A DNA stretch of 64,000 nt from an uncultured Erysipelotrichaceae bacterium (GTDB taxonomy: Bacteria; Bacillota_I; Bacilli_A; RFN20; CAG-826), in the NCBI GenBank assembly GCA_902787955.1, contig CADAIJ010000007.1, positions 128,326-192,325 of the forward strand, read 5' to 3'. Below, one piece after another: positions 40,778 through 63,990 of the stretch. A model generated the notes under the pieces. The model searched no databases. It was not told where the DNA came from and saw nothing but the letters and a program-made list of their open reading frames with translations. How positions within the stretch are numbered: position 1 is the first letter of the stretch; each line of letters starts with the position of its first letter. Made by a program: the position numbers and the translations under genes.

Positions 40778-41683
40778 TTATTCCTCCTCAGGTTGTGCTG
40801 TTTTCGATTGAAGCGATAATTTTTCAAGACTAGAACCAAAAGGTTTTTTCAAAAGCTGTTGTGCGAAAGAACACGCAGAAGTCTTCTTAAATGTATCAAC
40901 TTCTAAATCGGTTCCAAATAATCTTTTGTATGATGACAAAACCGATCTAAACCAAATATGTTTATTACAAATATCATCGAAATCTACGTCATCATCTTGA
41001 ATTTCACTTTTACAAATTGAGAAGCCTTCAGTTAACGCTGGAATAAGCAAAGAATTAAAGAACATTTCTTGATAAGCAGGAATTGCATAAATGATTTTAT
41101 AATTATCAAAATCTTTCTTTGCCATCGTAATAACAATCTTCTTAGAAGAATCGCAATCAACAGAAAACATTCCATCTTCTAGTTTTTCATCGCAAATAAT
41201 GGAGAATATAGATGAGACAACATTGTTTTCTTTTTCTTCGTGACGGGCATGCATGTTAAACCCATCATAAACTGCGACTATATCATATTTTTCAATGCTG
41301 AATTTATAGTCTAAGTAATCATCATCAAACTCGTCAGATGAGAGTATAAAATCTTCTGTTGCATAAGCAAATAATGAGCAATCCAATCTTTCATTAAAAT
41401 CAGATTTATATAAAGTTAATTTTTGAGGTTGCTGAGTAATGACAAATTTTTTTCTAAATACGGTATACGAACATTCAATAATTAATAAGATTTCAATTTT
41501 CTTTTCATCATAAAGCTTTTGGATTGTTTTGCTGTTCGTCACGAAACAAATGTTATCAAAAACAAATCTGTCATCATATTCAATAAAATCGTAGCTAAGA
41601 TCAAAGGTTAAATCTTTGTAATTAGATAATCCTAAATTTTTATTAATAACAGGATACGGAAACAGCTTATTTCTGACTTGCAT
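40778..41683 (-). CDS. hypothetical protein (cassette member)
   Basis: 301 aa, acidic; overlaps the GHKL gene by 17 nt, implying translational coupling. Confidence 0.4.
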   Translation of the reverse strand: MQVRNKLFPYPVINKNLGLSNYKDLTFDLSYDFIEYDDRFVFDNICFVTNSKTIQKLYDEKKIEILLIIECSYTVFRKKFVITQQPQKLTLYKSDFNERLDCSLFAYATEDFILSSDEFDDDYLDYKFSIEKYDIVAVYDGFNMHARHEEKENNVVSSIFSIICDEKLEDGMFSVDCDSSKKIVITMAKKDFDNYKIIYAIPAYQEMFFNSLLIPALTEGFSICKSEIQDDDVDFDDICNKHIWFRSVLSSYKRLFGTDLEVDTFKKTSACSFAQQLLKKPFGSSLEKLSLQSKTAQPEEE

Positions 41684-48366: not shown

Positions 48367-48461
48367 AATAAATCCCTCCTTTATGCTATATAGCGATTTT
48401 TATGTCGACACCGCTATTATAACATTTAAGAAGGGATAAACCAAATCTACTCCTAGATTTT

Positions 48462-50081: not shown

Positions 50082-50866
50082 TAAAAACCACCATACCTTT
50101 CCTTGAATTCATTAATAACACCTCTCATCTCTAAAGGAAGAGTGTTAATAACGTCATTAACTAAACTAGCAGGAATTACTTTATAGTAGGCTTCTGCAAC
50201 CGCACAAGAAATTGCCGCGGTTGTGTCACAGTCTCCTCCAATTGAAATTGTGGTTCTTAAACAATCTTCAAAGGAAGTAGAAATAAAGAAACAATATAAG
50301 GCTTCTGGAACGGTTAGTTGACATATTTCAGGACCATGAACATATGTGCTCCTAAGTTCTTCATAATCGAAGTCTAAATCATAGAACTTGGAAGCAAAAT
50401 CCTTGAGTTGCTCTTTATTTTTTCCATTTCTAGCCATACGAATGAGTTCACTTGTAACATAAGCACCCTTCATTCCTTCTTTATGGTTATGAGTAACTTT
50501 AGTAAAGGTATCACTTAATTCCTTAACTACATTAGGATCATCGCTTACCCATCCTACTGGGGATATACGCATTGCGCTACCATTGCCGCAGGAATTATAT
50601 GGTTTTGGGTTAGCCATATACATCCAGCTTGAAAATGAACCACCATAACCGGCATTAGGATATTCTTGAGCCAATTTTTGTAAATATTTAGCCGCAGAAA
50701 CCTCGTCTTTTATTTCTGCATGAAGTAACCAATCCATACAGGCGATAGTTAAAACGGTGTCATCGGTGTATGTTGAATTTTTAGTAACTAAGGTGAATTC
50801 TTTAGTTTTAATGTTATTGAATTCGAAACGTGAACCCACTACATCTCCAATAATCGCTCCTATCAT
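50081..50866 (-). CDS. ADP-ribosylglycohydrolase (ARH/DraG family)
   Basis: MIGAIIGDVVGSRFEF and YTDDTVLTIA correspond to ARH metal-binding motifs. Confidence 0.65.
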   Translation of the reverse strand: MIGAIIGDVVGSRFEFNNIKTKEFTLVTKNSTYTDDTVLTIACMDWLLHAEIKDEVSAAKYLQKLAQEYPNAGYGGSFSSWMYMANPKPYNSCGNGSAMRISPVGWVSDDPNVVKELSDTFTKVTHNHKEGMKGAYVTSELIRMARNGKNKEQLKDFASKFYDLDFDYEELRSTYVHGPEICQLTVPEALYCFFISTSFEDCLRTTISIGGDCDTTAAISCAVAEAYYKVIPASLVNDVINTLPLEMRGVINEFKERYGGF

Positions 50867-52095
50867 TATTCATTCCCCTCCTTTTCTTTCATTTTTTGGT
50901 CCATATATTCTTTGAATTTCTCCGCAAGAGATGGACTATTTGCGGTTAATCTTTTAATTTCAAGGTTTGGAATTTGGTTAACTGCTCTACCCAAATGAGT
51001 AACAGTCTTTTTAAATTCGTCTTTGAAATTCTGGACTTTCTTAATAATGTCTTCGCACATCTTATCGACCTGGTCATAAATCTTACCCGCGTTAGAGTAA
51101 TCAGTATTGATCTTATCTACGACTGTTCTAACCGCTGTTTCAAAGTTAGCGATATCAACATTTTCTTTTTTATATCTATCGATTTCTTTTCTATAGCTTA
51201 AGGTATTTCTCGCCATTGAACGGATTAAGCCGATGATAGTGAGGAAGTATTGAGGTCTAACCACAAACATCTTTGGATAACGATGTGACACATCAACGAT
51301 ACCTTTATTATATAAAGTGCTATCGCTTTCTAAGGTAGAGACTAAAACTGCATACTCACATCCTTTGGATGTTCTATTTTTATCAAGCTTACTAAAGAAG
51401 TGTTCGTTTTTATGCTTATCTTTAGTGGTGTCTTTTTCTGTCTTCATTTCAAACATGATGGAGACAGTTTCAATACCATCGATATAGTCGCGGAAAATGA
51501 AGTCACCTTTTCCTTCTTCGTCCACTTTATTATCTTTTTCAAAGTAGGAATCTGGGTAAGCAGTCATTCTTACTTCGTTAAAAGCATCCTGACAGTATTT
51601 CTCTAAGGACTCACCTAAGTCTTTAGTGGAATCGCCCATTCTAAATTCCTTCCAAAGCTTAATCTCGTTATCTTTAGCTTCGAGTTGGAATTCGTATTGC
51701 TCTTTAAGCTTTTGGGTGGATAACACTAATTCCTTTTCATTATTAGCGATTTGGCCTTTAAGCTTAGTGATCTCTTCGTTCTTCTTAGAGATAGTCTCTT
51801 TATAAGTGTCTAAAGCAGAATTGACGGCAATTGTTGTGTCTTTTTCGGAGTTAGCTAACTTCTCTTCTAAGACTTTAATCTTGTTGTTAAGTTCCGCGTT
51901 TAAAACTTCTTGGGCCGCTTTTAGTTTATTGGCTTCGATTTCGTTTTTAGCTTTATAAACTTTTTCGAGGTCAGTTACCTTATCTTTAACTCGACGTTCG
52001 ATTTCTTCGGTTTCGATATCTTGAAGGAGAGAATTATATTCATCCTTCCCGATTTCGATAATTTCTTTACATTTAGGACATGTGATTCTTAACAT
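50866..52095 (-). CDS. coiled-coil protein with an N-terminal zinc ribbon (DUF2130-like)
   Basis: MLRITCPKCKEI..., a long coiled coil, then an alpha/beta C-terminal domain. Confidence 0.4.
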   Translation of the reverse strand: MLRITCPKCKEIIEIGKDEYNSLLQDIETEEIERRVKDKVTDLEKVYKAKNEIEANKLKAAQEVLNAELNNKIKVLEEKLANSEKDTTIAVNSALDTYKETISKKNEEITKLKGQIANNEKELVLSTQKLKEQYEFQLEAKDNEIKLWKEFRMGDSTKDLGESLEKYCQDAFNEVRMTAYPDSYFEKDNKVDEEGKGDFIFRDYIDGIETVSIMFEMKTEKDTTKDKHKNEHFFSKLDKNRTSKGCEYAVLVSTLESDSTLYNKGIVDVSHRYPKMFVVRPQYFLTIIGLIRSMARNTLSYRKEIDRYKKENVDIANFETAVRTVVDKINTDYSNAGKIYDQVDKMCEDIIKKVQNFKDEFKKTVTHLGRAVNQIPNLEIKRLTANSPSLAEKFKEYMDQKMKEKEGNE

Positions 52096-52098
52096 ATA

Positions 52099-52677
52099 TT
52101 ATTTATTCTCCTTTCCTAATTCGTATTTTAATGTAATGACATAGTCATTATGATAATTAGATAAACCCGCGACAGTCACTAAACACTTCTTATATGAGTA
52201 GCGTTTAGCTTTATGCATTAAATCGAAGAGTGTTCCTTCCATATTGCAGTTAATGCAACTAAATGTCTTATTAGTGATACTTATAGCAACAGAGTGATTG
52301 TCCTTACAAAATGGACAATTAACATATAGGAAGTCGCCTTTTTTAGTTACATTTTTAAATAAGAAGTCCACTACTTTAATGGTGTCAGCATGCTTTAAGA
52401 CATCTTTCTCTGCTCTTTTAAATACTCTACGTGCCTTGCGCATTTCCTTACGTCTAATACGAGTAGCTTTTTCCTCCTCGGCAGCAGCTACATCAATGTC
52501 GTACTCAAGATACTTAGCGCATTTAAGTAAGTCTTCGAGAGCTAATCTATCATCGTAGAACTCTTCGAGACAGTTAAGCATGGTGACTTCTAGCACGTCT
52601 TCGCGTGTTAAATTAGATTCGGACAATTGATAATCAATTAAGTCCTCGATGTGTTGTTGAATTTCGTTTTTAGTCAT
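52099..52677 (-). CDS. zinc-finger hypothetical protein
   Basis: CPFCKDNH...CINCNMEG; basic central region. Confidence 0.4.
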   Translation of the reverse strand: MTKNEIQQHIEDLIDYQLSESNLTREDVLEVTMLNCLEEFYDDRLALEDLLKCAKYLEYDIDVAAAEEEKATRIRRKEMRKARRVFKRAEKDVLKHADTIKVVDFLFKNVTKKGDFLYVNCPFCKDNHSVAISITNKTFSCINCNMEGTLFDLMHKAKRYSYKKCLVTVAGLSNYHNDYVITLKYELGKENK

Positions 52678-52679
52678 GC

Positions 52680-53601
52680 TTATTTTCCTCCATTCTTTTG
52701 ACGATCAATTTCATCTAATACTTCTTTTTTAGGTTCGTAACCCATCGCTAAGGTGAGGACTTCGAGGTCATTACGACACATTTCGTCATCTAAGTAGGAT
52801 TTAAAGAATCCATCAAGGATGATGGCGTCAATTTCTTCGTCATCCTTGTTTTTATACTTGTTATGTAATTGTTCTCTTAGTTTTTTTAAGAACGCTCTTA
52901 TTTCTTGTTCGTTCATACTATTTATTTCCTCCTTTTAATTCTTCTAACCATTCAGGCCTTTTAATTGTTTCCATAAGGACATCAATAAGGTCAGTGACTA
53001 AGTCGTTATAATCACGAGCCATAAAGGTGTCGATAATAACACCACCTGGAAACTTACCGGTGTTGATGTCAATAGCCTCTTTTTCAAAGGCTTTAAGTTT
53101 CTTTAATAAGTGTTCGCGCTTACTAAGTAGTTGTTGATTAGTGTTGTTTTTTACGCTTGCCATATATTTTTCTCCTTTACTTAAATAACACTGACATAAT
53201 GTCTAGATGGTCTTTTTCTCACTACTGAACTTAAATCATCCATCCAGCGAATGATAACCATGTAATCGTGGGAACTAATTTCTCCTGAGTTATAGCCATT
53301 ACGGAATCTCTCCATAAGTGTGTGATTAGTGATGCCGCGCTTATTGGCATCTTTTACTAATTGATTGAACTTATCTTTGTTCATACACTACTACCTCCTT
53401 TTCTAAGTAATTCTCGTAGTCCTTATCCTGTAAGAGGCTACTCAACTTGAGCTCCTCTTTTTTACGGAGATAGGCGATTACTTTCTTATTCCTATTAGTG
53501 AACTTGATGTCACTGATTTTGCTTGAATATATCTTGCTATTCATTTTTATTTCCTCCTTGTTAGCTAAGTTTTTCATCTCGGTTTTCTCTCGAGCCAACA
53601 A
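52680..53601 (-). other. array of four tiny ORFs (78, 81, 67 and 76 aa), tightly packed
   Basis: Contiguous or overlapping stops and starts: 52680-52916, 52918-53163, 53181-53384, 53371-53601. Resembles a phage or anti-defense early-gene array. Confidence 0.35.
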
Positions 53602-54099
53602 TAGGTTAAAATAGAATATGAATTTCAGATAATTCGTGACTTGTCGTAAAAAATAGTCCTATACTTTGTATAGGACTTTCTTGTAATTTCTCAATTAAGG
53701 ATTGTAGTCCCATAACTTAGGTATAATTCAATAACCACCTTTATTATGGGGAATGAAGATTAGGATTTGGTCAATCCGGAAATGACAAATATAAAATATG
53801 AGGAAAATGGTCAATTGTTCCCCCACACTTATTTTCACCCACTATATTTATATAGTATTTGCCCTTTTTAGCACTAAAGAGGCTCGGGGAGGGCCAAATA
53901 TCTAGATAAGGATATTTAAATCCTAACTATATATTTCGTGGCCCTACGAGCCTCTTTTTATAAATCTATATTTCTTAGTAATCCTAAATAATATTATTAA
54001 TATTTTTAATATTGTTGTTCCACTCTTAACATTTGCTTAACATATAGGTGAAATAAGAAGTCGTTGTGTTTCGTTTCATTCCTCACTTTCTTTAGAAAA

Positions 54100-54133
54100 G
54101 GATACCCTTATCGCTTGGGGTATCCTTTTCCTT
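54100..54133 (-). terminator. intrinsic terminator
   Basis: GGATACCC-ttatcgctt-GGGGTATCC hairpin with an A tract on one side and a T tract on the other, just downstream of the minus-strand gene ending at 54158. Confidence 0.55.
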
Positions 54134-54157
54134 ATCTTTATTAATGCCTTTGTTTCT

Positions 54158-54511
54158 TTAGTCTTTAAACCTTAATAGAACCCCACCTGGTCTATCTTTC
54201 TCTTTAGATTTTTCTTTAACTAATGAGTTATATAAGTTAGTGTTCCTCTTCTTAATAAGTTCATCATAATACTCTAATAATTCTTCAACATATAATGGCT
54301 TTCTAACTCCAGCGCAGTAACACGCCATAGAGGTGACACCTAGTTGGAAGACAGTGTAATCATCTAAATCCACGGCAATACCTATTACTTTATCTTTAAG
54401 ATTATAAACATCATCTAACTTATGATAGATCTTATATCCATCTTCTTTACTTAATCTATTAATAAGTGTGTTAATCCCATCATAGGATTTATAAGTTAAG
54501 ATATACTGCAT
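54158..54511 (-). CDS. hypothetical protein (117 aa)
   Basis: Last gene of the operon. Confidence 0.4.
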   Translation of the reverse strand: MQYILTYKSYDGINTLINRLSKEDGYKIYHKLDDVYNLKDKVIGIAVDLDDYTVFQLGVTSMACYCAGVRKPLYVEELLEYYDELIKKRNTNLYNSLVKEKSKEKDRPGGVLLRFKD

Positions 54512-54525
54512 ATTAATATTATTAT

Positions 54526-55299
54526 TTAATCTCTTTCTTTAAATTCTCTTACTTGTTTATAGCCCTCTAACATATATTTCGCTAAAGTATGTGGCTCTAC
54601 TCCCCCAGTTAAACCTCCAAAGGCAGGGATAACGATAGAATGGATGTTAGCTTTAAGCGCCATAATAAGAGTGCTTCTCATCGAATTATAGATAACTAGA
54701 GGGTCTTTAATAATAGAAGGTGTTCTCATCGTTGGAGTGTGTATTAACTTCTTATCTGTATTAGGGATATCCACGAGAATTGAAGTTCCTACAGGTTGTT
54801 CACCAAAATAATTTTGTTTAATGAAGTTCTGGACTCTTTTTTGTAAAGTATCTCCAAAGTATCTAGTAATCGCTAAGTCGTAGCCTCCATTCATGATTCC
54901 AAATGAATTAGCAGGACTTACAATACATTCAACATTTTTATGTGTGTCCATAAAGTGTTTAAAGTCATCTAAGACTACTTCTACTTCTTTATAGCTAGAG
55001 AAAGCTTTTTTAAATTCAGAGATGATTTTAGGGTTAATATCAAGAAGATAGATTTTAAGGTTATTAAGATTAGAATAAACTTTCACAATATGGCCTTTAT
55101 TATAGAAAGGTTCAGAACTTACTAAGTCTAAAGAGATAAGTTCGTTAAAGATAGAATCCGCTAAAGGGAAAGAAATAGAGAATGTTCTTTGTAAGGTTGA
55201 GATAGAAACGTATTTCGTATCTTTAAGCCATTCTTTAATCACATCCATTAAGCCTTCGTTATAGGCTTTAGTTAGTAAGTCTTTGTTATTATTCATCAT
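54526..55299 (-). CDS. FtsK-gamma-like winged-helix + macro-domain protein
   Basis: YVSISTLQRTFSISFPLADSIFNEL resembles the FtsK gamma wHTH. ECIVSPANSFGIMNGGYDLAI and AFGGLTGG are macro-domain signatures. Confidence 0.5.
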   Translation of the reverse strand: MMNNNKDLLTKAYNEGLMDVIKEWLKDTKYVSISTLQRTFSISFPLADSIFNELISLDLVSSEPFYNKGHIVKVYSNLNNLKIYLLDINPKIISEFKKAFSSYKEVEVVLDDFKHFMDTHKNVECIVSPANSFGIMNGGYDLAITRYFGDTLQKRVQNFIKQNYFGEQPVGTSILVDIPNTDKKLIHTPTMRTPSIIKDPLVIYNSMRSTLIMALKANIHSIVIPAFGGLTGGVEPHTLAKYMLEGYKQVREFKERD

Positions 55300-56021
55300 T
55301 ATTTCTTTTGATACTCCTCTCTTAGTTTCATAAGTAAGATCCCTAGATTATTCTTTCCTTTTCCTTTAGATACTCCCCAGAAAGTATCATTCCAATCATT
55401 ACCTTCGATTAATATTCTATCTTTGGTATTTATTAGTTTCTCTTTTAAGTCAGGATATGTATTAAATTTAATTCTTAATATATCCTCCATGATATTAACT
55501 TTAATGTCTTCCCAATCACTTCTTAAAGTTACTTTTCTTCCTAATCTTTTTGCACTTGTAGGAGATAGATTTTTAAATTCTTCACTCCTACTTAAATCTT
55601 TTTGAGCTTGGAAGGCTGCTTCATTATTTAAGTAAGTAATCCCGTTATAAGTAATACTAGCGTTATAGAAATTACTTAAGAAATCATATTCTCCCCTAAA
55701 GGAAGTTATCGCGTCTTTAAGTTTTATTCTTTCTAATTCTATTTCTTCTAGTTTCTTTCTTTTAGTTTCTTCTTCAAGTTTAGCTAATCTAATACTTTCT
55801 TTATTTTCAAATTCTAAATAGTCTTCCATTAACTTATTTAGTTTTTCTTCTTTAAATCTAAGGTATCCACTTCGATAGGCGAGATATAAGCTATATTTCT
55901 TATCATTAGATAGACTAATAATTATTTCTTTAATCTCACTAGATTCATTGGTGGCTTTAATTAAATATGTCTCCCCTACTTTATTAATTACTTCCTTATT
56001 TAAAAGTGTCTTATTATCCAT
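55299..56021 (-). CDS. NADAR (YbiA-like, DUF1768) domain protein with an N-terminal coiled-coil extension
   Basis: YDFLSNFYNASITYNGITYLNNEAAFQAQKD...SDWEDIKVNIMEDILRIKF...GNDWNDTFWG matches the NADAR consensus closely. Confidence 0.7.
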   Translation of the reverse strand: MDNKTLLNKEVINKVGETYLIKATNESSEIKEIIISLSNDKKYSLYLAYRSGYLRFKEEKLNKLMEDYLEFENKESIRLAKLEEETKRKKLEEIELERIKLKDAITSFRGEYDFLSNFYNASITYNGITYLNNEAAFQAQKDLSRSEEFKNLSPTSAKRLGRKVTLRSDWEDIKVNIMEDILRIKFNTYPDLKEKLINTKDRILIEGNDWNDTFWGVSKGKGKNNLGILLMKLREEYQKK

Positions 56022-56109: not shown

Positions 56110-56784
56110 TTATTTATTTTTAAACTTATGATAGATAGTTAGAGGTTTAATTCTATTTACTACTTCATATGGGGATTCTTTAAGAGAGAGGGAATCACTA
56201 TTAAAGATAGCAACTTCATTATAGTAACCTTTTTGTTTTTCTTTCTTAGTAGGTAAGATACGACGCGAATAGTTAATTTTAGATATAGGATCTTCTTTTA
56301 AAGTTACTTTTAGGTTTCTAGTTAATTTATTAGGATCTTCTTTTCCTTTAAATAACTCGTAGAAGATATTACCTGTATTAGATTGAAGAAGTGTTTCATT
56401 ATTATATCTAGATACTTTAATTAGATAGGAGAGTTTAATGTTTGGATTATCTCCTATTACTATATCCACCCCTTTCCTTGTAGGACATTTATTATGATGA
56501 AGATAGAAATGGAAAGGGGATGATTTATCTCCTCTTTGTTCATCCTTACCTTCATGAATAAAGGAGTCTATATAGTGGATTTTATTATTTTGATCTTTTT
56601 CATGTAGATCTTCAAAGTAAGCCTCTACAAAGAGGGGTTTAAGTTCTTCATCATTATCAAAACAAATAATAGAGTTAAGTAGATACTCCCCTATCTTTTG
56701 AATAAGACTAGTTATCTCTTCCGTAGATTTATTAGGAGAGATCTCATGATATAAAGATAGGATTTTATTTTCGATATTATTCAT
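56110..56784 (-). CDS. hypothetical protein
   Basis: 224 aa; first gene of the NADAR operon. Confidence 0.4.
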   Translation of the reverse strand: MNNIENKILSLYHEISPNKSTEEITSLIQKIGEYLLNSIICFDNDEELKPLFVEAYFEDLHEKDQNNKIHYIDSFIHEGKDEQRGDKSSPFHFYLHHNKCPTRKGVDIVIGDNPNIKLSYLIKVSRYNNETLLQSNTGNIFYELFKGKEDPNKLTRNLKVTLKEDPISKINYSRRILPTKKEKQKGYYNEVAIFNSDSLSLKESPYEVVNRIKPLTIYHKFKNK

Positions 56785-56834
56785 AACTATTAATCATTAT
56801 AGCGGTTCTAATCTAATTTATCAGTTTAGATAAA

Positions 56835-56875
56835 GAAAAAGACCGCAGAACCCAAGTGTTTTGGGAGTGCGGTCT
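56835..56875 (-). terminator. intrinsic terminator after the macro gene
   Basis: AGACCGCA...TGCGGTCT hairpin followed on the minus strand by TTTTTCTTTAT. Confidence 0.55.
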
Positions 56876-56923
56876 ATCTCGCTCTGTTGCGCTTAAATAA
56901 TAATATTAAACGATCGGGTGATG

Positions 56924-57601
56924 CTAGAACAAAGATAATTGCTTATTAAATTCAATATTTCCATCATAATAAAGTCTAAATATCGACTTATATGTTTCCG
57001 CTCCAATATCTTTAATTTTTGATATATCAACAAATCTAACAATTTTACTTTGTTCATTTTCTAATGAAGTAATTTGCTTTTTTGTTAATCTGACATATTT
57101 TTTAAGTTCATCAATCGGCGTTTCTTTGAAAGAGTTAATCATTTCAAGTTCTTTCCCTTCAACCAATTTAGATCGACAAATATAAACATCAATATCAAGG
57201 TTTGAAAGGTATTTAATCATTACTTTCTCAACTTCCTCTGGATTTAAGCCGCCATTAGAAGCACCAAGCAATGGAAAAGCAACAGAGTTAAATCCCCACT
57301 GTTTATAGTTTTCGGTGAAATACTTTAAGCCTTCTTCAATCCACTCCATTTGAGATGGGTATTTAAAATGGAACTTAGTTGGAAAGTTTATTATCTTTTG
57401 TCCATCAATTTCATAAAAATATACTTTTCCGGTATGGATTAAGTTATTATGACACTCTTCAATATATTGTTCGTTTAATTTTGGATAGCGTAAAGCAAAT
57501 TCAAGTGCAAGGCCTTTCCCCATTAAGCCAACACAGTTAATCGTATTAACAATGCATTCAGCTTTTGTATTAAAAACAGTTGAATCAGTAATTATCATCA
57601 T
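56924..57601 (-). CDS. macro-domain protein of the TARG1/DarG type (candidate antitoxin or reversal enzyme)
   Basis: AECIVNTINCVGLMGKGLALEF and AFPLLGASNGGL match the DarG/TARG1 macro clade. Overlaps the DarT-like gene by 17 nt. Confidence 0.6.
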   Translation of the reverse strand: MMIITDSTVFNTKAECIVNTINCVGLMGKGLALEFALRYPKLNEQYIEECHNNLIHTGKVYFYEIDGQKIINFPTKFHFKYPSQMEWIEEGLKYFTENYKQWGFNSVAFPLLGASNGGLNPEEVEKVMIKYLSNLDIDVYICRSKLVEGKELEMINSFKETPIDELKKYVRLTKKQITSLENEQSKIVRFVDISKIKDIGAETYKSIFRLYYDGNIEFNKQLSLF

Positions 57602-58544
57602 TTTTATGCCAAAATAATTCCCAGCGAACTTCGCATTTTCTCCTAATTTGTTCTCTTTTATTATAAGGCAAACAATTGATAAAGTTATCTAATTCGTCTT
57701 CCGATTCGAAATAAATATGCTTAATAATTTCCGCACTAACTTTGTTGTGGAACAAGATTTCAGCAGCTAAATATGGATTATCCTCATAAGCATCATAAGC
57801 ATCGTAAGTTTTTGCAAAATTAAAGTTAAATCGATTTAGATTTTTAAGGTTTCCTTGATATCCAATGTTAAATCTTCCCCAGTAAAAATCACCATCATAC
57901 ATAAAATGTCCATTTACCGGATAAAGAATTACATTGGTACCTGACTTCCAAATTGAATCATAATCGAGAGCGATTATAACTCCATAAGTATTGTTTTTGA
58001 TAAAATTGTGATACATCGAGCATGTGGCTTTATTTCTTATGTTTAGATAAAATCTTGCATATCGTTGCAATATTGGTGAGTAATTTGATCCCATAACAGA
58101 ATTAGATGTTTCGTTCATTTTATCATTATCATATTTGATTAAAATACCTCCATAATATCTAGAATACAAATACCCTGTGGAAATAATTGAGACAGCGTTT
58201 TGAACTGCTGTAAAATGATAAAACTCAACAGGACCGTCGCTATGTCGTTGCAACATATTGTAAAGTTCGTCATAAGATGTGGCTAAACTCTCAAAACGAA
58301 GACCGGTTTCTTTAGTCTCACATACATATGGTTTTGCAATCACACTTCTTTCTTCAATATTTTTATATATAACGCCTTCAATTTTATCTTCGTTTGTCCA
58401 AAAATCGCGCATTTCGCCATCTGTGAATACTGCTTTGTGTTCATCTTTAATTGATAGAATTGTCTTCCTCTCACCGTTTTTAAAAACAACGATATCGCCT
58501 TTTCTCAAATCTTTATATGAATTATATTTTTGAATTTTTTCCAT
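57585..58544 (-). CDS. DarT-like (DUF4433) ADP-ribosyltransferase with an N-terminal extension of about 100 aa
   Basis: FYHFTAVQNAVSIISTGYLYSR parallels LYHFTHIDNLPSILxxGLLSR. C-terminal AAEILFHNKVSAEIIKHIYF parallels the AEfLV...IP...I motif that carries the catalytic Glu. Confidence 0.55.
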   Translation of the reverse strand: MEKIQKYNSYKDLRKGDIVVFKNGERKTILSIKDEHKAVFTDGEMRDFWTNEDKIEGVIYKNIEERSVIAKPYVCETKETGLRFESLATSYDELYNMLQRHSDGPVEFYHFTAVQNAVSIISTGYLYSRYYGGILIKYDNDKMNETSNSVMGSNYSPILQRYARFYLNIRNKATCSMYHNFIKNNTYGVIIALDYDSIWKSGTNVILYPVNGHFMYDGDFYWGRFNIGYQGNLKNLNRFNFNFAKTYDAYDAYEDNPYLAAEILFHNKVSAEIIKHIYFESEDELDNFINCLPYNKREQIRRKCEVRWELFWHKNDDNY

Positions 58545-58568: not shown

Positions 58569-59570
58569 TTATGCCTCTCCTGGCTTTTTACCATTAAATA
58601 ATTCTTCATCTAAATGGTTAATTAACATTTGATAAAAATTCTTAAATCTTTCAGGAACATACAAGTTCTCCCTTTTTATGTTTTTTAGTAATCTTTTTGC
58701 TTCTTTGTGATCTCTTTCTACACCATCGATATCGGAAGCAAAGCATAATGCAGAAATAATACGGCATAAAGGATTTGCAGTCCTCATAGTTCCCGCTACC
58801 GCAATAAAGAATCCTTTGTTATTAATATTAAGACTGCCTGTCTTTTCATACTCTTCTTGAAGAAATAATAATGAAAAAATGGCATAGGAATCGCCGTTAA
58901 ATCTCTCATACAAACAATTAATAACATCTTCATAATCGCTTTCGTAAGCAGCGTTAAATAATCTAACATTCAACCCGTTGTTTGAATAAAGAGCACCGCC
59001 ATATTCATTAAATATTTTTAAATAATGAAACTCTGTATTATCTTTAAAAAATTCTTTATAAGGTGGAAATAGATTATTTAGCGTTTTATATGATTGTGAA
59101 AGTATATAAGCGACTTGGCCCTTTCTATTATTGGGAGCGTATTCAAAAGCAAGATTTAAATATTTCGATGCTTTTAGATAATCAACCATATCTGGCTCTA
59201 AATTGTTAAAAATATGTAAGTTGGCTAATTCCAAACATGCTGAATAACTATGTTTATTAATCCCTTCTTCAAGAACTTTCACTGCTTGATAAACTTTCGC
59301 TAGATTACCTACAGTTATTTTCACATAAAGATTATAGGCATCATATCCTTCCTCAATCGCTTTTAATGCGTATTCTTGCGCTTCTTTATACCTTCTTAAA
59401 CGGCATAATGCTAGAGCAATAAAATAGTATAATGATTTATCCTCTTTGATTTTTAAAGCATCATTAAAACAATTAATTGCAATTTCTTCTTCACTAGTTT
59501 CTTTGTCAGTACCAAAAAGATTAACTAATCCTAAAACTTTTTTCTTATCAAAATCACTCAAATAAAACAT
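58569..59570 (-). CDS. helical-repeat (TPR/Sel1-like) protein
   Basis: Repeated amphipathic helices rich in Ala, Tyr and Leu; 333 aa. Confidence 0.35.
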   Translation of the reverse strand: MFYLSDFDKKKVLGLVNLFGTDKETSEEEIAINCFNDALKIKEDKSLYYFIALALCRLRRYKEAQEYALKAIEEGYDAYNLYVKITVGNLAKVYQAVKVLEEGINKHSYSACLELANLHIFNNLEPDMVDYLKASKYLNLAFEYAPNNRKGQVAYILSQSYKTLNNLFPPYKEFFKDNTEFHYLKIFNEYGGALYSNNGLNVRLFNAAYESDYEDVINCLYERFNGDSYAIFSLLFLQEEYEKTGSLNINNKGFFIAVAGTMRTANPLCRIISALCFASDIDGVERDHKEAKRLLKNIKRENLYVPERFKNFYQMLINHLDEELFNGKKPGEA

Positions 59571-59579: not shown

Positions 59580-59909
59580 TTATGCCATATCACTAATATC
59601 TTTATTATACTCAAACTCTAAATTCCACTTTTTTAAAAGCATATCCTTAAGTAAATTAGAGCAATCATCATATGCATTATTTAAAACGTATTGAAATTGT
59701 TTGTTATATTTCTCATCTTTCTTTGCATATCGAAAAAATCTAGCACAAAGATCTTTAAATGATTCTACATCTAAAAAAACATCCCCATATGCACCTGAGC
59801 ATATACTTAAAATAAGTAAATACTCGTCAGTTTTCTTATCGCTAGGATCCCAATAGATTTTAATTGGATCATCTTTTGTTCCAACAAATGTTATGTTTGT
59901 CTCTTTCAT
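59580..59909 (-). CDS. hypothetical protein (109 aa), first gene of the DarT-like operon
   Basis: ORF downstream of the 59.9-60.3 kb intergenic region. Confidence 0.4.
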   Translation of the reverse strand: MKETNITFVGTKDDPIKIYWDPSDKKTDEYLLILSICSGAYGDVFLDVESFKDLCARFFRYAKKDEKYNKQFQYVLNNAYDDCSNLLKDMLLKKWNLEFEYNKDISDMA

Positions 59910-60260
59910 AATTCCTCTTTCTTCCTCCTTAAATACTAATAAGAACTGGCCCGGAAGTTCTTTTTTTTAGAAAGGAGGTTATGCATAAAACTGGAAAAGA
60001 TTTTAGTTACACCAAGCCGGGCCTCTTGAATGTAACTAAATATTAACCAAAAAATAAATTATTAATAGTCTTGTAATTCATAGAAGATATGGCAAAATCG
60101 TAACCCACGACTCTTCTATCTGAATCTATTCTTACTGAATATATTCTGTATCTCTGAATATCTTATCCTATTATCCTTCTCTTCTTATTCTTTATCTTTC
60201 TTCTCTACTCCCTTTTTTAAAATTTTTTGAAAATTATTTATAAATTCGCTCAAATATAAA

Positions 60261-60288
60261 ACGCCCCAGCATAAACTGAGGCGTTAAT
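60261..60288 (-). terminator. intrinsic terminator after the AAA-protease gene
   Basis: AACGCCTCAG...CTGGGGCGTT hairpin followed on the minus strand by TTTTATATTT. Confidence 0.5.
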
Positions 60289-60310: not shown

Positions 60311-61678
60311 TTAGGCGCTTACGTGCTCGTTATTATTAAACCTATTTAGTATTTCTTCAACTTCTCGCTTAGAGAGTTTTTCTTTCTCTTTAAGTTCGTT
60401 ATATAACGTTTTAGCAAGGTTCATATTCGATTGTATTAAAGCTTTAGCATTTTCAAACGCTTCGTTTAGTAATTCTGTTTCAAGTCTTTCTGTTACTTCA
60501 AGTCTCTTTTCAGAGGTTGGAGTAGTATCTGCAGCAAAACCACCACTTGCTCTATTAGGTGGAAGTTTATCAAACCCAAAAGCACCAACATTCATAAGAT
60601 GAGATATGGCCGTTCTAGCTTTATTGACATCATCAACTGCTCCAGTAGTCATGTCACTACACATAACTTCTTCACCAGCAAGACCACCAAGCATTGTAAT
60701 TAGTTTCTTCTTAAGAGTGTTTTTACTTACTCGTTCAAATTCAATTGTTTCTTCTTCAAACAAGATATGGCCTGTTATTCTTCCAAACTTTTCAGTAGAG
60801 ATTGATGTCACAATACCACTTGTTTTATATTCTGCAATGAAATGGCCAATTTCATGATAACAAGTTAAATCATCTGGGCCATATTTATTTCTCTTTCTAA
60901 TATCTTGAAATCTTACAACAGGAATATTCCTTTCGAAGTCAATAAGTGTAATCTTATTAATTCCTTGGGATGTGCAGTCAATAATTGTCTCGTTTACGAG
61001 TGTCTTTATGTCCGCTCCACAGAAATTAGGAGTCTTAAGAGCAAGTTGATGAGCATCTATATCATTAAGTAATTCGTTCTTACTTAAATAGAGTTTAAAT
61101 ATTTCTTCTCTATCGATGGTGTCTGGCATATCAATAGTGATACGTTTATCCATTCTTCCACTTCTCATTAAAGATGGCGGAAGAATTGGGCGGTGATTTG
61201 TTGTAGCAATAACTAAAATACCATCGCTAGAAGAAATGCCATCAATCTCAGTTAAAAGAATCTTTGTTGTTTTTCTTGAGTAATCAGAAGTAAAGTCATT
61301 TGTCATAACTAATTCATCAAGTTCATCAATAAAGATAATAGCAGGAGGATTTTCTCTCGCTTTCTTGAACAATTCTTTAATGGATTTAATAGTAGCGGCT
61401 TCGGTTTCGCTTTCATTACTTTCGTATTCAAAGAATGGAACCCCACTTTCAGAAGCAATAGCTTTAGCAAGCATGGTTTTACCTACGCCAGGATTGCCAG
61501 ATAAGATTAAACCTTTAGGTATATACGCACCCTTCTTCTCGTACTTCTCGTGGTTTTTAAGAACCTCGATAATCTTCTTAGCCTCGGCTTTTTCTTCTTC
61601 ATAGCCAGCGATGTCACTTAAATAAATTTTGTCTTCCATATCTAATATTCCTTTCATTAAAAATTTGTAAAAAACCAT
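60311..61678 (-). CDS. soluble FtsH-like AAA+ ATPase fused to an M41 zinc metalloprotease (no transmembrane N-terminus)
   Basis: Walker A GNPGVGKTMLAKAIA, Walker B IIFIDELDEL, second-region-of-homology-like ATTNHRPILPPSLMRSGRMD, zinc-binding HEIGH. Confidence 0.7.
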   Translation of the reverse strand: MVFYKFLMKGILDMEDKIYLSDIAGYEEEKAEAKKIIEVLKNHEKYEKKGAYIPKGLILSGNPGVGKTMLAKAIASESGVPFFEYESNESETEAATIKSIKELFKKARENPPAIIFIDELDELVMTNDFTSDYSRKTTKILLTEIDGISSSDGILVIATTNHRPILPPSLMRSGRMDKRITIDMPDTIDREEIFKLYLSKNELLNDIDAHQLALKTPNFCGADIKTLVNETIIDCTSQGINKITLIDFERNIPVVRFQDIRKRNKYGPDDLTCYHEIGHFIAEYKTSGIVTSISTEKFGRITGHILFEEETIEFERVSKNTLKKKLITMLGGLAGEEVMCSDMTTGAVDDVNKARTAISHLMNVGAFGFDKLPPNRASGGFAADTTPTSEKRLEVTERLETELLNEAFENAKALIQSNMNLAKTLYNELKEKEKLSKREVEEILNRFNNNEHVSA

Positions 61679-61719: not shown

Positions 61720-62688
61720 TTATTTATTAGTGTTACAAAGTTCAACAAATTCTTGGTATGTGATTATTCTTCCACCATATGGGTACTTTAGACCAGAAGA
61801 AATCTCTTCTTTATTCTTCTTGTCTATAGTAACAAAGAAATCAGAACCATTTGTTCTATCATATGCAACAAAGTTGTTTTCTTTAATTAATTTAATAAGA
61901 TTCGTTAGTTCTTTATGATGCTCTTTCATTTCACCACTAACAGTAACGAATTTACCAATTGAATTAGGATCTTCCAAAAGAGGCAAGTGTTTGCGATATA
62001 ATTCACCCCACATTACTTGCCCTTCATCTCTCTTCTTCTTGTTGACATGACTTTTTCTTTTATATCGCTCGTTTTTATTCTCTTTATACTTCTTCCAATA
62101 TTCAAAAGCAGAAATCTTTGAATCTTGGCATGAGTCGAGAAGATCTTGAACGCTAAACTCTAAGTCCACTACCATAGATTTAAAAACAAGCATTGTTTTA
62201 TAAGCATCATCATCCGCTTTATGATCTATTAAACTGCTTCTTTCATTCTCAGGAACAATATCAATAAAGGCATTATCTAAAGACGTATATCTTTTGTTTT
62301 GCTTATCGAAAACAGGAAGCATCTTTTGAACATCATATGCTACATAATCAAACTTATCCAATTTATAACGGTTACAAGCCTTAATAAGGTAACGAATGTC
62401 GTTATCTACACTATGACCGAAGATTAATATATCTTTTTGGGTCATAAGAAATTTAATATTGTCATAAGCATCGTCAAATGGTTTATGTTTATAATATTCT
62501 TCTTCAGGGTAGGATAGTTTTAAGTCAGATTGACCTTTTCTACCCGTAAGATTAAATTTGCATTTCGGATTAATAAGGATGTTTTTCTTTCGAATGATAT
62601 TTAAACTCTCATCGCATAAAACATATCCAAATTCGCATATGGCTCTACTTCCATCTGCGCATTCAATGTCGAAAAATAAGTATCTCAA
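61720..62688 (-). CDS. DEDDh 3'-5' exonuclease (DnaQ/RNase T-like) with a C-terminal extension
   Basis: LFFDIECADG (exo I), FGHSVDNDIRYL (exo II) and HKADDDAYKT (exo III). Confidence 0.65.
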   Translation of the reverse strand: MRYLFFDIECADGSRAICEFGYVLCDESLNIIRKKNILINPKCKFNLTGRKGQSDLKLSYPEEEYYKHKPFDDAYDNIKFLMTQKDILIFGHSVDNDIRYLIKACNRYKLDKFDYVAYDVQKMLPVFDKQNKRYTSLDNAFIDIVPENERSSLIDHKADDDAYKTMLVFKSMVVDLEFSVQDLLDSCQDSKISAFEYWKKYKENKNERYKRKSHVNKKKRDEGQVMWGELYRKHLPLLEDPNSIGKFVTVSGEMKEHHKELTNLIKLIKENNFVAYDRTNGSDFFVTIDKKNKEEISSGLKYPYGGRIITYQEFVELCNTNK

Positions 62689-62778: not shown

Positions 62779-63990
62779 TTAGAAAATGCTTTTTTCGTAG
62801 TTTTTAATCAATTTTTCTAAAAAATCTGTCTTATTGTAATTAAACTTGTTGAATAATGTGTATTGGGGTTTCTCGCCTTTTCTTGTTTTCCTTAATGTTG
62901 GAAGAGGAATGGCGTCTTCAGCAAGAAGTGATTTAAGAGAATAACCTAATTCGTTTGGATATTCATGCACGATATAAAGAAAGATAAAAAGTTTCGAATA
63001 GCCATCATCTAGATCTTCAAGTGATTTTATTAGTAATTTAGCTTTTTGAGGAGAATTAATTTTAATTTTGAGTTTTCGGTAAGCTCTTCTAATAGTGTTA
63101 ATAAAATTGGCTTTTTTAAGCTCAAAATCATTATTTAAAGTTTTATCACTAATGTTATCAATTGCTTCCTTAATTTCCGATAGTATCTCAATAGATGCTT
63201 TGTTTTGTTTATATATATCAGTTTGGAATCCTTTAGTGGAATAATCATGTTTAAATAGATTAAAGAATGGAATAGTTTTTGTTCTAACATCATCTTCAAA
63301 TGCAGAATTATTAACAATATCCCATAGATAATCCATTGTTGTTTTAAATTCGCGGTCAATATTACTTTTTTGTTTAATATCACTTATCTTTGGCTTACAG
63401 TTCTTATCTCTAGAAACAATAGTGAAAAATAAAGGCTTTTTACTATAATAGCCGTGTTTGATAGCGTAATTTCTAACCCTATTATATTCACTGGTTGTGT
63501 TGTCGAATGGGAAACTACGCTTAGCGCTATCGATTTCCGCACCTGATAGAACTGCTAAAATAGCAATTTCGTTATATAGTTCTTTATGTTCGTTACCTTT
63601 ACCATATTTATAGTTATTCCAAAGATGGCTATTTAATAATTGAGAGAGGTTAACGATTTTACCAACATTGTTATTAGCGATTTCGTTATCAATTTTGTTT
63701 TGATTTAAAAGAAGATTCTCTTTTTTATCAGTTGAAAATTGTTCCATTGCTTTATTAGTAGATCCAAATCCAGTAAATGGAACAGGGAAATTGTTATAAT
63801 TTTTAATAGCGGATTCCACCAAAACAGGATTATCGGTTAAAAGCATTGAATCAGAGTCATAATCGCATCCACTTAATCTTTGTTGGATATTATTGTTAAT
63901 TGCATCCACCACAACTATTTCATTAGTGAGATTAAAATATTTATCTATCTCAGGGAGTCTTTTATTTTTTGCATATAAGACATTTCCCAT
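62779..63990 (-). CDS. hypothetical protein
   Basis: 403 aa; no motif. Confidence 0.4.
   Translation of the reverse strand: MGNVLYAKNKRLPEIDKYFNLTNEIVVVDAINNNIQQRLSGCDYDSDSMLLTDNPVLVESAIKNYNNFPVPFTGFGSTNKAMEQFSTDKKENLLLNQNKIDNEIANNNVGKIVNLSQLLNSHLWNNYKYGKGNEHKELYNEIAILAVLSGAEIDSAKRSFPFDNTTSEYNRVRNYAIKHGYYSKKPLFFTIVSRDKNCKPKISDIKQKSNIDREFKTTMDYLWDIVNNSAFEDDVRTKTIPFFNLFKHDYSTKGFQTDIYKQNKASIEILSEIKEAIDNISDKTLNNDFELKKANFINTIRRAYRKLKIKINSPQKAKLLIKSLEDLDDGYSKLFIFLYIVHEYPNELGYSLKSLLAEDAIPLPTLRKTRKGEKPQYTLFNKFNYNKTDFLEKLIKNYEKSIF

What the first reader, a model, noticed from the sequence alone, without database searches (positions are those of the whole stretch)
56924..58544. DarT-like ADP-ribosyltransferase with a novel N-terminal extension, paired with a short TARG1/DarG-type macro protein
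The 319-aa protein matches DarT/DUF4433 N- and C-terminal signatures (YHFT...G.L.SR; AEILF with the catalytic Glu) and has an extra N-terminal domain of about 100 aa. The next gene, overlapping by 17 nt, encodes a 225-aa macro protein of the DarG/TARG1 clade (VNTINCVGLMGKGLALEF). This is only a macro domain plus a tail of about 70 aa, much shorter than canonical DarG at about 350 aa. This looks like a compact or variant DarTG-type DNA ADP-ribosylation toxin with its reversal enzyme. It is embedded in a four-gene operon with a TPR-like protein and a 109-aa protein.
Basis: partly seen in the sequence, partly recalled or inferred. Interest (0 to 1): 0.7.

Follow-up and report, generated by a model that had tools for sequence, protein, structure and literature searches.

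The report
Long-DarT / short-DarG DNA ADP-ribosylation toxin–antitoxin pair
Two overlapping genes encode a divergent DarT-type ADP-ribosyltransferase toxin with an extra N-terminal domain and a shortened DarG-type enzyme that should erase its mark; this layout is a widespread variant of the DarTG anti-phage system that the papers I could search do not describe.

Summary
On the minus strand, 57585-58544 encodes a 319-aa protein. Its C-terminal 215 aa pass the Pfam DarT threshold, and its model matches only solved DarT structures. It keeps the NAD-site His/Thr/Asn/Tyr and the catalytic Glu (E262). Residues 1-60 form a confident small beta-barrel with no Pfam match.

The gene 56924-57601 overlaps it by 17 nt. 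It encodes a 225-aa DarG-type macrodomain (1.1-1.4 Å rmsd to solved DarG macrodomains, catalytic Lys K76 kept) plus an 80-aa helical tail.

The tail matches the middle segment of full-length DarG, so the protein simply lacks DarG's last ~130 aa, the DarT-binding domain.

DarT and macro genes are adjacent in all nine distinct contexts examined. In 80 loci from reference genomes, short DarG pairs with long DarT (35 long, 10 short). Long DarG pairs only with short DarT (0 long, 13 short; p = 4e-7).

Terminators delimit the four-gene operon in this window. However, the 109-aa and TPR-like genes form a separable cassette that precedes other cargo elsewhere.

The module lies in a probable mobile island that also carries NADAR, ARH and two further macrodomain genes.

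Verdict: a real, probably active DarTG2-like module and a new architectural variant of a known kind. Activity, target base and regulation are untested.

The parts
57585..58544 (-). DarT-like toxin gene, 319 aa
   Evidence: Pfam DarT 38.9 bits against a gathering score of 22.5. PADLOC DarT 1.6e-5. The top 8 Foldseek PDB matches of the AF2 model are all DarT. 13 full-length homologues at 44-54% identity.
58365..58544 (-). N-terminal domain (aa 1-60), a small beta-barrel of SH3/Sm-like appearance
   Evidence: Five strands with pLDDT 77-92. Only weak Foldseek matches to Hfq and other small barrels, E 0.1-0.5. No Pfam match. Conserved in the family. Also found on a 509-aa non-DarT protein, P0064, and on a more canonical DarT, P0056. 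Absent from the 80 reference-genome loci.
58233..58364 (-). Variable linker (aa 61-104); its last part is a helix (aa 91-101)
   Evidence: pLDDT below 50 for aa 63-81. Poorly conserved and full of indels in alignment A1.
57588..58232 (-). ADP-ribosyltransferase (DarT) domain, aa 105-319. H110 (58215-58217), R129 (58158-58160), R164 (58053-58055), Y166, E262 (57759-57761)
   Evidence: H110, R129, R164 and E262 are the only invariant residues besides the start Met in 36 diverse relatives. The profile aligns E262 with the Glu-to-Ala site of all four solved DarT constructs. It aligns H110/T112/N116/Y166 with Thermus H13/T15/N19/Y71 (residue roles from PMC9967889). Codons checked.
56924..57601 (-). 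Short DarG-type antitoxin gene, 225 aa; its start overlaps the DarT gene's end by 17 nt
   Evidence: PADLOC DarG 1.1e-48. phmmer against PDB: M. tuberculosis DarG macrodomain 1.9e-26, T. aquaticus 1e-25. AF2 pLDDT 92.4. More than 600 relatives; nearly all of the 120 listed are 217-241 aa.
57167..57601 (-). Macrodomain (aa 1-145); N22, K29, catalytic K76 (57374-57376), H78, F79
   Evidence: Foldseek: 5m3i and 5m3e at rmsd 1.1-1.4 Å, TM 0.89-0.90, 35-36% identity, followed by TARG1. Residues mapped on TaqDarG N22, K29, K80, H82, W83 from the alignment and PMC5179494. K76 is invariant in 53 homologues.
56927..57166 (-). Helical tail (aa 146-225), helix-hairpin-helix-like; equivalent to the middle segment of full-length DarG
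   Evidence: Five helices at pLDDT above 90. An HMM of the tail hits aa ~150-220 of 341-385-aa DarGs at E 1e-8 to 3e-19. There are only sub-threshold Pfam HhH hits: HHH_3 at 1.4e-3 and 3.6e-3 on that segment of two long DarGs, and HHH_5, HHH_8 and HHH_2 in four of 53 short-DarG homologues, where the matched region was not reported.
58569..59570 (-). 333-aa TPR-like accessory gene, 24 nt upstream of the DarT gene
   Evidence: Weak TPR_12 hit. 13 homologue clusters, one named a TPR repeat protein by JGI. 28% identical to a 335-aa gene near DarT in L018 and distantly related to the Sel1-like genes in L001, L004 and L009. Also occurs without DarT in L019, L020 and L021.
59580..59909 (-). 109-aa gene of unknown function, first gene of the transcription unit
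   Evidence: No family hit. 48-55% identical partners precede the 333-aa homologue in L019 and L021.
56826..56880 (-). Intrinsic terminator after the macro gene (hairpin 56835-56880 followed by a U-run)
   Evidence: RNA fold -25.1 kcal/mol, z-score -5.0, none of 200 shuffles as stable, followed by UUUUUCUUU. A promoter-like site, CTGATA-17-TATAAT, follows at 56824-56796.
60260..60285 (-). Terminator of the preceding FtsH-like gene; upstream boundary of the operon
   Evidence: Stem of 11 pairs (6 G-C) followed by a T-run, then a 350-nt gap before the 109-aa gene.

Best explanation
This is a DarTG2-like toxin-antitoxin (probably abortive-infection) module of a long-DarT/short-DarG architecture. 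Inferred mechanism: the C-terminal domain of the 319-aa protein binds NAD+ (H110, T112, N116, Y166). Using E262, it transfers ADP-ribose onto a base of single-stranded DNA, most likely thymine, which blocks replication. The translationally coupled 225-aa protein removes the adduct with its DarG-type macrodomain (K76). Its helix-hairpin-helix-like tail probably holds it on DNA. This DarG lacks the C-terminal domain that in canonical DarG binds and occludes DarT, so neutralisation should be mainly enzymatic. Control or triggering of the toxin is probably carried by the extra N-terminal domain of DarT, possibly together with the co-transcribed TPR-like protein. Shown here: domain identities, conserved residues, gene linkage, operon boundaries and the architectural correlation. 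Inferred: activity, DNA and base target, the antitoxin relationship, and the roles of the N-domain, tail and TPR protein.
For: Toxin identity: Pfam DarT above threshold. The AF2 model's top 8 PDB matches are all DarT, with DarT2 best at E 7e-8 and TM 0.64-0.70. A profile of 36 relatives reaches the solved DarTs 7omu (5e-11), 7omv (6e-8), 8baq (1.8e-5) and 7yk3 (7e-4). It aligns E262 to the catalytic Glu and H110/T112/N116/Y166 to NAD-site residues. Antitoxin identity: the macrodomain is 35% identical and 1.1-1.4 Å rmsd to DarG macrodomains, with N22, K29 and K76 kept. The TaqDarG macrodomain alone is a sufficient antitoxin (PMC5179494). Linkage: the two genes overlap by 17 nt here and are adjacent in 9 of 9 distinct contexts. 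Several contexts are defence islands with restriction-modification, DEAD/MZB, NERD and AbiE-type genes. Architecture: short DarG with 35 long and 10 short DarT, long DarG with 0 long and 13 short, Fisher p = 3.6e-7. The tail matches the middle segment of DarG, which gives weak HhH hits. The operon is bounded by terminators.
Against: No activity data exist. The DarT domain is very divergent: the single sequence and the 13-member profile do not reach any solved DarT by sequence. The catalytic Arg (R51 in DarT2, R52 in DarT1) has no alignable equivalent, and that loop (aa 128-160) is modelled at low confidence. The oxocarbenium-stabilising Met aligns with Ala173. The family instead has its own invariant R129 and R164, so chemistry or target could differ. 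The HhH assignment of the tail rests on sub-threshold hits. A regulatory role for the N-domain or the TPR protein is pure inference. The TPR cassette occurs without DarT, and DarT-macro pairs occur without it.
Confidence: 0.72

Rival explanations
1. The pair has the same two-enzyme logic but a different substrate. This DarT clade would modify another base (guanine or cytosine), RNA, or a protein, and the macrodomain would reverse that modification.
For: There is no alignable equivalent of the catalytic Arg, Met78 aligns with Ala, and R129 and R164 are family-specific invariants. Only 57 representatives among 1.84 billion proteins reach E <= 1e-3, so this is a distinct clade. DarT relatives with other base specificities are known (PMC11543638; abstract of PMC12945103).
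Against: The partner is a close DarG-type macrodomain, the type known to reverse thymine-linked DNA ADP-ribosylation, whereas guanine adducts are reversed by NADAR (PMC11825919; PMC13309987). The DarT model is closer to DarT2 than to DarT1. The tail looks DNA-binding.
Confidence: 0.15
2. The element carries the pair mainly for its own benefit. The pair would act as an addiction or stabilisation module or as a weapon against the host or rival elements, and it would belong with the neighbouring ADP-ribose erasers as counter-defence.
For: The setting is a long one-directional gene array with many small ORFs next to chromosomal genes. The 940-aa neighbour has homologues in gut phage contigs, in Clostridium plasmids, and in phage genes annotated as RNA polymerase. 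The NADAR domain is 52-54% identical to those of Bacillus phages. Orphan NADAR and DarG-like macrodomains are proven phage anti-DarTG factors. A related element has other cargo in the same slot.
Against: The same DarT-macro pair sits between housekeeping genes or in defence islands in other genomes, without any erasers nearby. The macro gene is not an orphan. The neighbouring erasers are separate transcription units. The mobile-element assignment is itself only probable: no structural, integrase or conjugation genes were seen, and there is no synteny with the 176-kb phage contig.
Confidence: 0.1
3. The DarT-like gene is a decayed or inactive relative, and only the macrodomain is functional.
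For: Inactive DarT-like proteins exist, for example MMSYN1_0281, which has all four key residues replaced (PMC13621843). Two mechanistic residues cannot be matched here.
Against: The ORF is intact. H110, R129, R164 and E262 are invariant across 36 relatives that are otherwise 20-52% identical to the window protein. The gene is translationally coupled to an eraser, which is expected only if the transferase is dangerous.
Confidence: 0.03

Closest known systems
DarTG2 (Thermus aquaticus, M. tuberculosis and EPEC DarT2 with macrodomain DarG2)
   Same: DarT-fold transferase followed by a DarG/TARG1-type macrodomain hydrolase in one operon. Catalytic Glu and NAD-site residues in the toxin. N22, K29 and the catalytic Lys in the antitoxin. 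The middle helical segment of DarG is present.
   Different: The toxin carries about 105 extra N-terminal residues (beta-barrel plus linker). Its sequence is too divergent for a direct match to solved DarT. The catalytic Arg and Met equivalents are not identifiable. The antitoxin lacks the terminal DarT-binding, ssDNA-mimicking domain. A TPR-like gene and a 109-aa gene are co-transcribed.
DarTG1 (E. coli C7 DarT1 with NADAR DarG1)
   Same: DarT-fold toxin. A NADAR gene lies two genes downstream in this window.
   Different: The adjacent, overlapping partner is a macrodomain, not a NADAR. The NADAR gene lies in a separate downstream unit, after a terminator and an intervening 224-aa gene, and is absent from all related loci. 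The model is closer to DarT2 (E 7e-8) than to DarT1 (6e-5).
DarHTG (DarT + UvrD-like helicase DarH + ARH-type DarG3; PMC13069673)
   Same: A precedent for DarTG variants with an extra essential component and a non-canonical antitoxin. Relatives of the window system in L004 and L010 have a helicase gene overlapping the DarT start.
   Different: There is no helicase in the window. In the relatives the helicase is SLFN-g3 type, not UvrD-like. The antitoxin is a macrodomain, not an ARH.
Phage orphan antitoxins AdfM (DarG2-like macrodomain) and AdfN (NADAR)
   Same: A DarG-like macrodomain without the DarT-binding domain, in a probable mobile element. The neighbouring NADAR resembles phage NADARs.
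   Different: The macro gene here is not an orphan: it is translationally coupled to its own DarT and keeps that pairing in chromosomal loci.

Membership tests
DarT (Pfam PF14487 / DUF4433) | Match to the family HMM above the curated threshold | tested here: met
   38.9 bits against a gathering score of 22.5, aa 109-303 on profile positions 1-192 of 201. All nine longer relatives scanned also pass.
DarT (Pfam PF14487 / DUF4433) | PARP-like ADP-ribosyltransferase fold closest to solved DarT | tested here: met
   The top 8 Foldseek PDB hits are all DarT, E 7e-8 to 3e-4. Caveat: model mean pLDDT is 68, and the loop at aa 128-160 is unreliable.
DarT (Pfam PF14487 / DUF4433) | Completely conserved catalytic Glu (E160 in Thermus, E152 in DarT1) | tested here: met
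   E262 in AAEILF is invariant in 36 relatives and aligns with the Glu-to-Ala site in 7omv, 8baq, 7omu and 7yk3.
DarT2 / DarT1 (characterised subfamilies) | NAD-site His/Thr/Asn and nicotinamide-stacking Tyr (H13, T15, N19, Y71) | tested here: met
   H110, T112, N116 and Y166 by profile alignment. Residue roles from PMC9967889.
DarT2 / DarT1 (characterised subfamilies) | Catalytic Arg on the NAD-binding loop (R51 / R52) | tested here: inconclusive
   The profile alignment places the Thermus Arg pair (ERR) opposite N144/E145. The loop is poorly aligned and modelled at low confidence. Invariant R129 and R164 are candidate substitutes.
DarT2 / DarT1 (characterised subfamilies) | Intermediate-stabilising Met (M78 / M71) | tested here: not met
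   It aligns with A173 (NKATCSMY against RSPMLY). For this reason I do not file the protein under DarT1 or DarT2, only under the wider DarT family.
DarT2 / DarT1 (characterised subfamilies) | NAD+-dependent ADP-ribosylation of a base in ssDNA, and toxicity | not testable with these tools
   Requires expression and biochemistry.
DarG2 (DarTG2 antitoxin) | TARG1/DarG-type macrodomain with catalytic Lys (K80) and N22 | tested here: met
   K76, N22 and K29 are kept. rmsd 1.1-1.4 Å to 5m3i and 5m3e.
DarG2 (DarTG2 antitoxin) | Gene adjacent to and co-directional with a DarT gene | tested here: met
   17-nt overlap here. Adjacent in 9 of 9 contexts and in 58 of the 80 reference-genome loci.
DarG2 (DarTG2 antitoxin) | Second, C-terminal domain that binds and occludes DarT | tested here: not met
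   The protein ends at aa 225. The PADLOC DarG model is matched only over positions 1-145 of 329. An HMM of the last ~138 aa of long DarGs finds nothing in the macro protein, DarT or accessory proteins. Hence 'short DarG', not canonical DarG2.
DarTG1 | NADAR antitoxin as the operon partner of DarT | tested here: not met
   The NADAR gene (55299-56021) lies beyond the operon terminator and the 224-aa gene. It is absent from all related DarT loci.
DarHTG | Helicase gene in the operon and an ARH-type DarG3 | tested here: not met
   The window operon has no helicase, and the antitoxin is a macrodomain. An SLFN-type helicase is present only in relatives L004 and L010.

The most novel reading that the evidence does not exclude
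Long-DarT/short-DarG pairs are a distinct third mode of DarTG organisation. The antitoxin has lost its toxin-occluding domain and acts only as an eraser. The toxin carries an exchangeable N-terminal module (beta-barrel here; ankyrin repeats or predicted coiled coils elsewhere) that senses infection or autoinhibits the enzyme, sometimes helped by TPR/Sel1 or helicase partners. The catalytic Arg may have moved to R129 or R164, which could change base specificity.
Probability: 0.35. Interest if true: 0.7.

Novelty: new variant of a known kind. Interest (0 to 1): 0.55.

Why it matters
How DarTG is kept silent and then triggered by phage is still unknown. Canonical DarG blocks DarT both by erasing its mark and by physically occluding it. 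Here the occluding domain is absent, and the toxin has instead gained swappable N-terminal modules. This architecture is a natural experiment that separates enzymatic from steric neutralisation and points to where the trigger might be read. It also provides compact, divergent DarT enzymes that might have a different sequence or base preference, which matters because DarT2 is already used for DNA ADP-ribosylation-based genome editing (PMC13368585). The neighbouring set of all three eraser superfamilies shows how strongly ADP-ribosylation conflicts shape this element.

Tried and rejected
- Nucleotide and protein searches of the phage collection with the locus and with DarT found nothing.
- Pattern scans with the DarT alignment found no relative in IMG/VR or in the reference genomes. 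The patterns were too strict: a Mollicutes MAG relative (L023, ART domain 42% identical) appeared later through the macro scan.
- The single sequence and the 13-member profile gave no DarT hit among PDB sequences. Only the 36-member profile and the fold search connected them.
- I tested whether the lost DarG C-terminal domain had moved onto DarT or an accessory protein. An HMM of that domain found nothing at E below 0.2, so the idea is rejected at the sequence level.
- I first assumed the window was a jumbo phage. Positions 1-29 kb hold ordinary chromosomal genes, so that is rejected.
- Synteny with the 176-kb gut phage contig is limited to the 940-aa gene. The FtsH-like gene was uninformative about element type.
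- Pfam, PHROG and PADLOC gave no assignment for the N-domain, the tail, the 109-aa protein, the 224-aa protein or P0064.
- No tRNA gene is present. Cluster look-ups returned no names.
- Literature searches for DarT3/DarG3 and for extended DarT or short DarG found DarHTG, AdfM and AdfN, but no description of this architecture in the held library.
Full report
**1. Observation**

All genes discussed are on the minus strand. ORF 57585-58544 encodes 319 aa and ORF 56924-57601 encodes 225 aa. The second starts 17 nt before the first ends. The quoted motifs are present.

The 319-aa protein matches Pfam DarT (PF14487) at 38.9 bits, against a curated cut-off of 22.5, over aa 109-303. It also matches the PADLOC DarT model at 1.6e-5.

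The 225-aa protein matches Pfam Macro (1.8e-12) and the PADLOC DarG model (1.1e-48). That second match covers only positions 1-145 of a 329-position model.

**2. The toxin**

The protein is very divergent. Neither it nor a profile of its 13 close homologues reaches any solved DarT by sequence.

An AlphaFold2 model was built on those homologues (mean pLDDT 68; aa 63-81 and 128-160 unreliable). Its top eight PDB matches are exclusively DarT structures:
- Thermus DarT2: E 7e-8, TM 0.64-0.70.
- E. coli C7 DarT1: E 6e-5.
- M. tuberculosis DarT and the Thermosipho DarTG fusion.

An exhaustive HMMER search of 1.84 billion representative proteins returned only 57 proteins at E <= 1e-3. This is a small, distinct clade.

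In an alignment of 36 of these relatives, which are 20-52% identical to the window protein, the only invariant residues apart from the start Met are H110, R129, R164 and E262. The profile of that alignment does reach solved DarTs: 7omu at 5e-11, 7omv at 6e-8, 8baq at 1.8e-5 and 7yk3 at 7e-4.

That profile puts E262 on the Glu-to-Ala position of all four crystallised constructs. It puts H110, T112, N116 and Y166 on Thermus H13, T15, N19 and Y71 (residue roles from PMC9967889).

Two mechanistic residues do not carry over. The catalytic Arg (R51 in DarT2, R52 in DarT1) has no reliable equivalent. The Met that stabilises the oxocarbenium ion aligns with Ala173.

I therefore place the protein in the wider DarT family but not in the characterised DarT1 or DarT2 subfamilies.

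**3. The N-terminal extension**

Residues 1-60 fold as a confident five-stranded beta-barrel (pLDDT 77-92). It gives only weak matches to Hfq and other small barrels and has no Pfam match.

The domain is conserved in the 13 close homologues, so it is coding sequence and not a mis-called start. The same domain precedes a non-DarT 509-aa protein (P0064) and a more canonical DarT (P0056).

Within the clade, other members carry different N-terminal modules on a similar catalytic domain. One example is the Mollicutes MAG protein in L023, whose ART domain is 42% identical. The extension therefore behaves as an exchangeable module.

**4. The antitoxin**

The macrodomain is 35-36% identical to the M. 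tuberculosis and T. aquaticus DarG macrodomains. The model (pLDDT 92.4) superposes on them at 1.1-1.4 Å with TM 0.89-0.90, and TARG1 is the next-best match.

Mapping on TaqDarG gives N22, K29, K76 (= K80, the catalytic Lys), H78 (= H82) and F79 (= W83). G119 is Ser here. K76 is invariant in 53 homologues.

The 80-aa tail forms five helices. An HMM of the tail also matches aa ~150-220 of 341-385-aa DarG proteins at E 1e-8 to 3e-19. The tail is therefore the conserved middle segment of DarG.

Sub-threshold helix-hairpin-helix Pfam hits support this only weakly. HHH_3 matches that middle segment in two long DarGs. HHH_5, HHH_8 and HHH_2 appear in four of 53 short-DarG homologues, where the matched region was not reported. 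This makes a DNA-binding role plausible but not established.

What is missing is the last ~130 aa. In canonical DarG this is the domain that binds DarT and mimics ssDNA (PMC11825919; bioRxiv 2023.12.14.571748). An HMM of that domain finds nothing in the macro protein, the long DarTs or the accessory proteins.

The TaqDarG macrodomain alone has been shown to suffice as an antitoxin (PMC5179494).

**5. Linkage and distribution**

DarT and macro genes are adjacent and co-directional in all nine distinct contexts I retrieved:
- Some lie between housekeeping genes: MetRS and pyruvate kinase, ValRS and LepA, or IF3-L35-L20.
- Some lie in defence islands with restriction-modification, DEAD/MZB, NERD or Mrr-type genes.

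The short-macro family is much larger than this DarT subfamily, with more than 600 relatives; nearly all of the 120 listed are 217-241 aa.

A scan of one genome per species found 582 relatives. Hosts include Mollicutes, Clostridia, other Bacillota, Cyanobacteria, Halanaerobium, Bacteroidota, Chloroflexota and archaea.

I ran my own ORF and HMM census on the best 80 loci:

| DarG length | Adjacent DarT > 240 aa | Adjacent DarT <= 240 aa |
|---|---|---|
| Short (<= 260 aa) | 35 | 10 |
| Long (>= 278 aa) | 0 | 13 |

Fisher's exact test gives p = 3.6e-7. This test is not corrected for phylogeny, and ORF starts were taken at the first possible start codon.

The extensions vary in sequence. One has ankyrin repeats (L077). 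None of the 80 loci has the window's barrel.

I found no description of this architecture in the held literature. The closest published variant is DarHTG (PMC13069673).

**6. The operon and accessory genes**

A terminator at 60285-60260 ends the preceding FtsH-like gene. The 109-aa, 333-aa, DarT and macro genes then follow with spacings of 9, 24 and -17 nt.

A strong hairpin with a U-run at 56880-56826 (-25.1 kcal/mol, z -5.0) ends the unit. A promoter-like site precedes the next gene. Co-transcription of the four genes is therefore well supported.

In evolutionary terms the unit consists of two modules:
- The 109-aa and 333-aa pair recurs at 48-58% identity in L019 and L021, and the 333-aa gene alone in L020. 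In those loci it is followed by quite different genes: DUF488 + DUF488 + DuOB, a PRTase-like gene with a DprA/SLOG-like gene, or a UvrD-type helicase.
- L019 is a related element (FtsH-like protein 79% identical, exonuclease 67%) with different cargo in the DarT slot.

Conversely, DarT-macro pairs occur with distantly related Sel1-like genes (L001, L004, L009), with a 335-aa relative of the TPR-like protein (L018), with a MazG-like gene and an SLFN-type helicase that overlaps the DarT start (L004, L010), or with none of these. A TPR/Sel1 partner is recurrent (5 of 9 contexts) but not obligatory.

**7. Setting**

Positions 1-29 kb hold ordinary chromosomal genes of a low-GC bacterium: truA, an ECF transporter, yebC and a folC-like gene.

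From about 30 kb to the window end lies a one-directional array. It contains a type IIG-like restriction enzyme, a Dam methylase, many small ORFs, and an unusual concentration of ADP-ribose erasers.

The gene that runs off the window end (62779-63990) is part of a 940-aa protein with a DYDSD motif. Its homologues are found in gut phage contigs, in Clostridium plasmids and, more weakly, in phage genes annotated as RNA polymerase.

The island is probably a prophage-like or other mobile element, but this is not proven. No structural, integrase or conjugation genes were seen, and synteny with the 176-kb phage contig is limited to that one gene.

**8. Mechanism and verdict**

The most likely mechanism is that of DarTG2:
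- NAD+-dependent ADP-ribosylation of a base in ssDNA by the toxin, probably thymine because the partner is a DarG-type macrodomain.
- Continuous reversal by the co-translated macrodomain protein.
- Growth arrest or abortive infection when the balance is disturbed.

The distinctive feature is that steric neutralisation by DarG is absent and the toxin has gained an N-terminal module. I infer that control has moved to that module, perhaps with the TPR-like protein.

It is a new architectural variant of a known kind, of moderate interest.

Confidence in the DarTG2-like mechanism is about 0.7. Confidence in the proposed regulatory role of the N-domain is much lower.

Noticed in passing
window 47395-56021 (minus strand): 55299-56021, 54526-55299, 50081-50866, 47395-48366: Besides the DarG-type macro, four more ADP-ribose eraser genes lie within about 10 kb. 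They are a NADAR with a 100-aa N-terminal extension (YbiA 8.5e-20; 52-54% identical to Bacillus phages AR9, PBS1 and SPbetaL3), a winged-helix plus Macro_2-type macrodomain (257 aa), an ARH/DraG-type glycohydrolase (261 aa) and a MacroD-type macrodomain (323 aa). All three eraser superfamilies are therefore present in one island, possibly as a counter-defence set. None of them occurs next to the DarT relatives elsewhere.
   Followed up: partly
window 62779-63990 (runs off the window end); L007 2944-5766: This is the C-terminal part of a 940-aa protein with a DYDSD motif. Homologues at 31-36% identity occur in C. botulinum and C. perfringens plasmids and in a 176-kb human-gut phage contig. Weaker matches (21%) hit Thomasclavelia and Enterocloster phage genes annotated 'RNA-dependent RNA polymerase'. 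It may be a YonO-like single-subunit RNA polymerase, which would suggest that the 30-64 kb region is a prophage-like element.
   Followed up: partly
L019 5657-8900; L021 5658-8439; L020 6001-10041: The 109-aa and TPR-like 333-aa cassette is followed by different two- or three-gene sets in different elements: DarT + macro, DUF488 + DUF488 + DuOB, a PRTase-like gene with a DprA/SLOG-like gene, or a UvrD-type helicase with a Zn ribbon. This resembles a conserved adaptor with swappable effectors, or a cargo hot-spot.
   Followed up: partly
L004 7850-11626; L010 7847-11634: In two defence islands, a MazG-like gene and a 617-aa SLFN-g3 helicase gene precede the DarT-macro pair, and the helicase gene overlaps the DarT start by about 20 nt. 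This parallels the recently validated helicase-containing DarHTG system, but with a different helicase and a different antitoxin.
   Followed up: no
protein P0064 (509 aa): The DarT N-terminal barrel domain is fused here to an unrelated C-terminal region containing a PD-(D/E)xK-like motif (IPDIVAIDQ...VIEGKP). There is no Pfam hit. This suggests the barrel is a shared module of several toxin or effector types.
   Followed up: no
window 56110-56784 (minus strand): A 224-aa gene with its own promoter-like site sits between the macro gene's terminator and the NADAR gene. It has no match in Pfam, PHROGs or PADLOC.
   Followed up: no
window 33069-43610 (minus strand): A 1337-aa ResIII + Eco57I-type (type IIG-like) restriction-modification enzyme, a Dam-class methylase fused to DUF7226, a DUF6339 protein and a 647-aa protein with a weak GHKL-ATPase hit. 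Together these look like a defence-gene block at the chromosome-proximal part of the island.
   Followed up: no
window 60311-61678 and 61720-62688 (minus strand): An FtsH-like AAA+/M41 protease of 455 aa and a DEDDh exonuclease lie just upstream of the operon. Both are conserved (79% and 67% identity) in the related element L019.
   Followed up: partly
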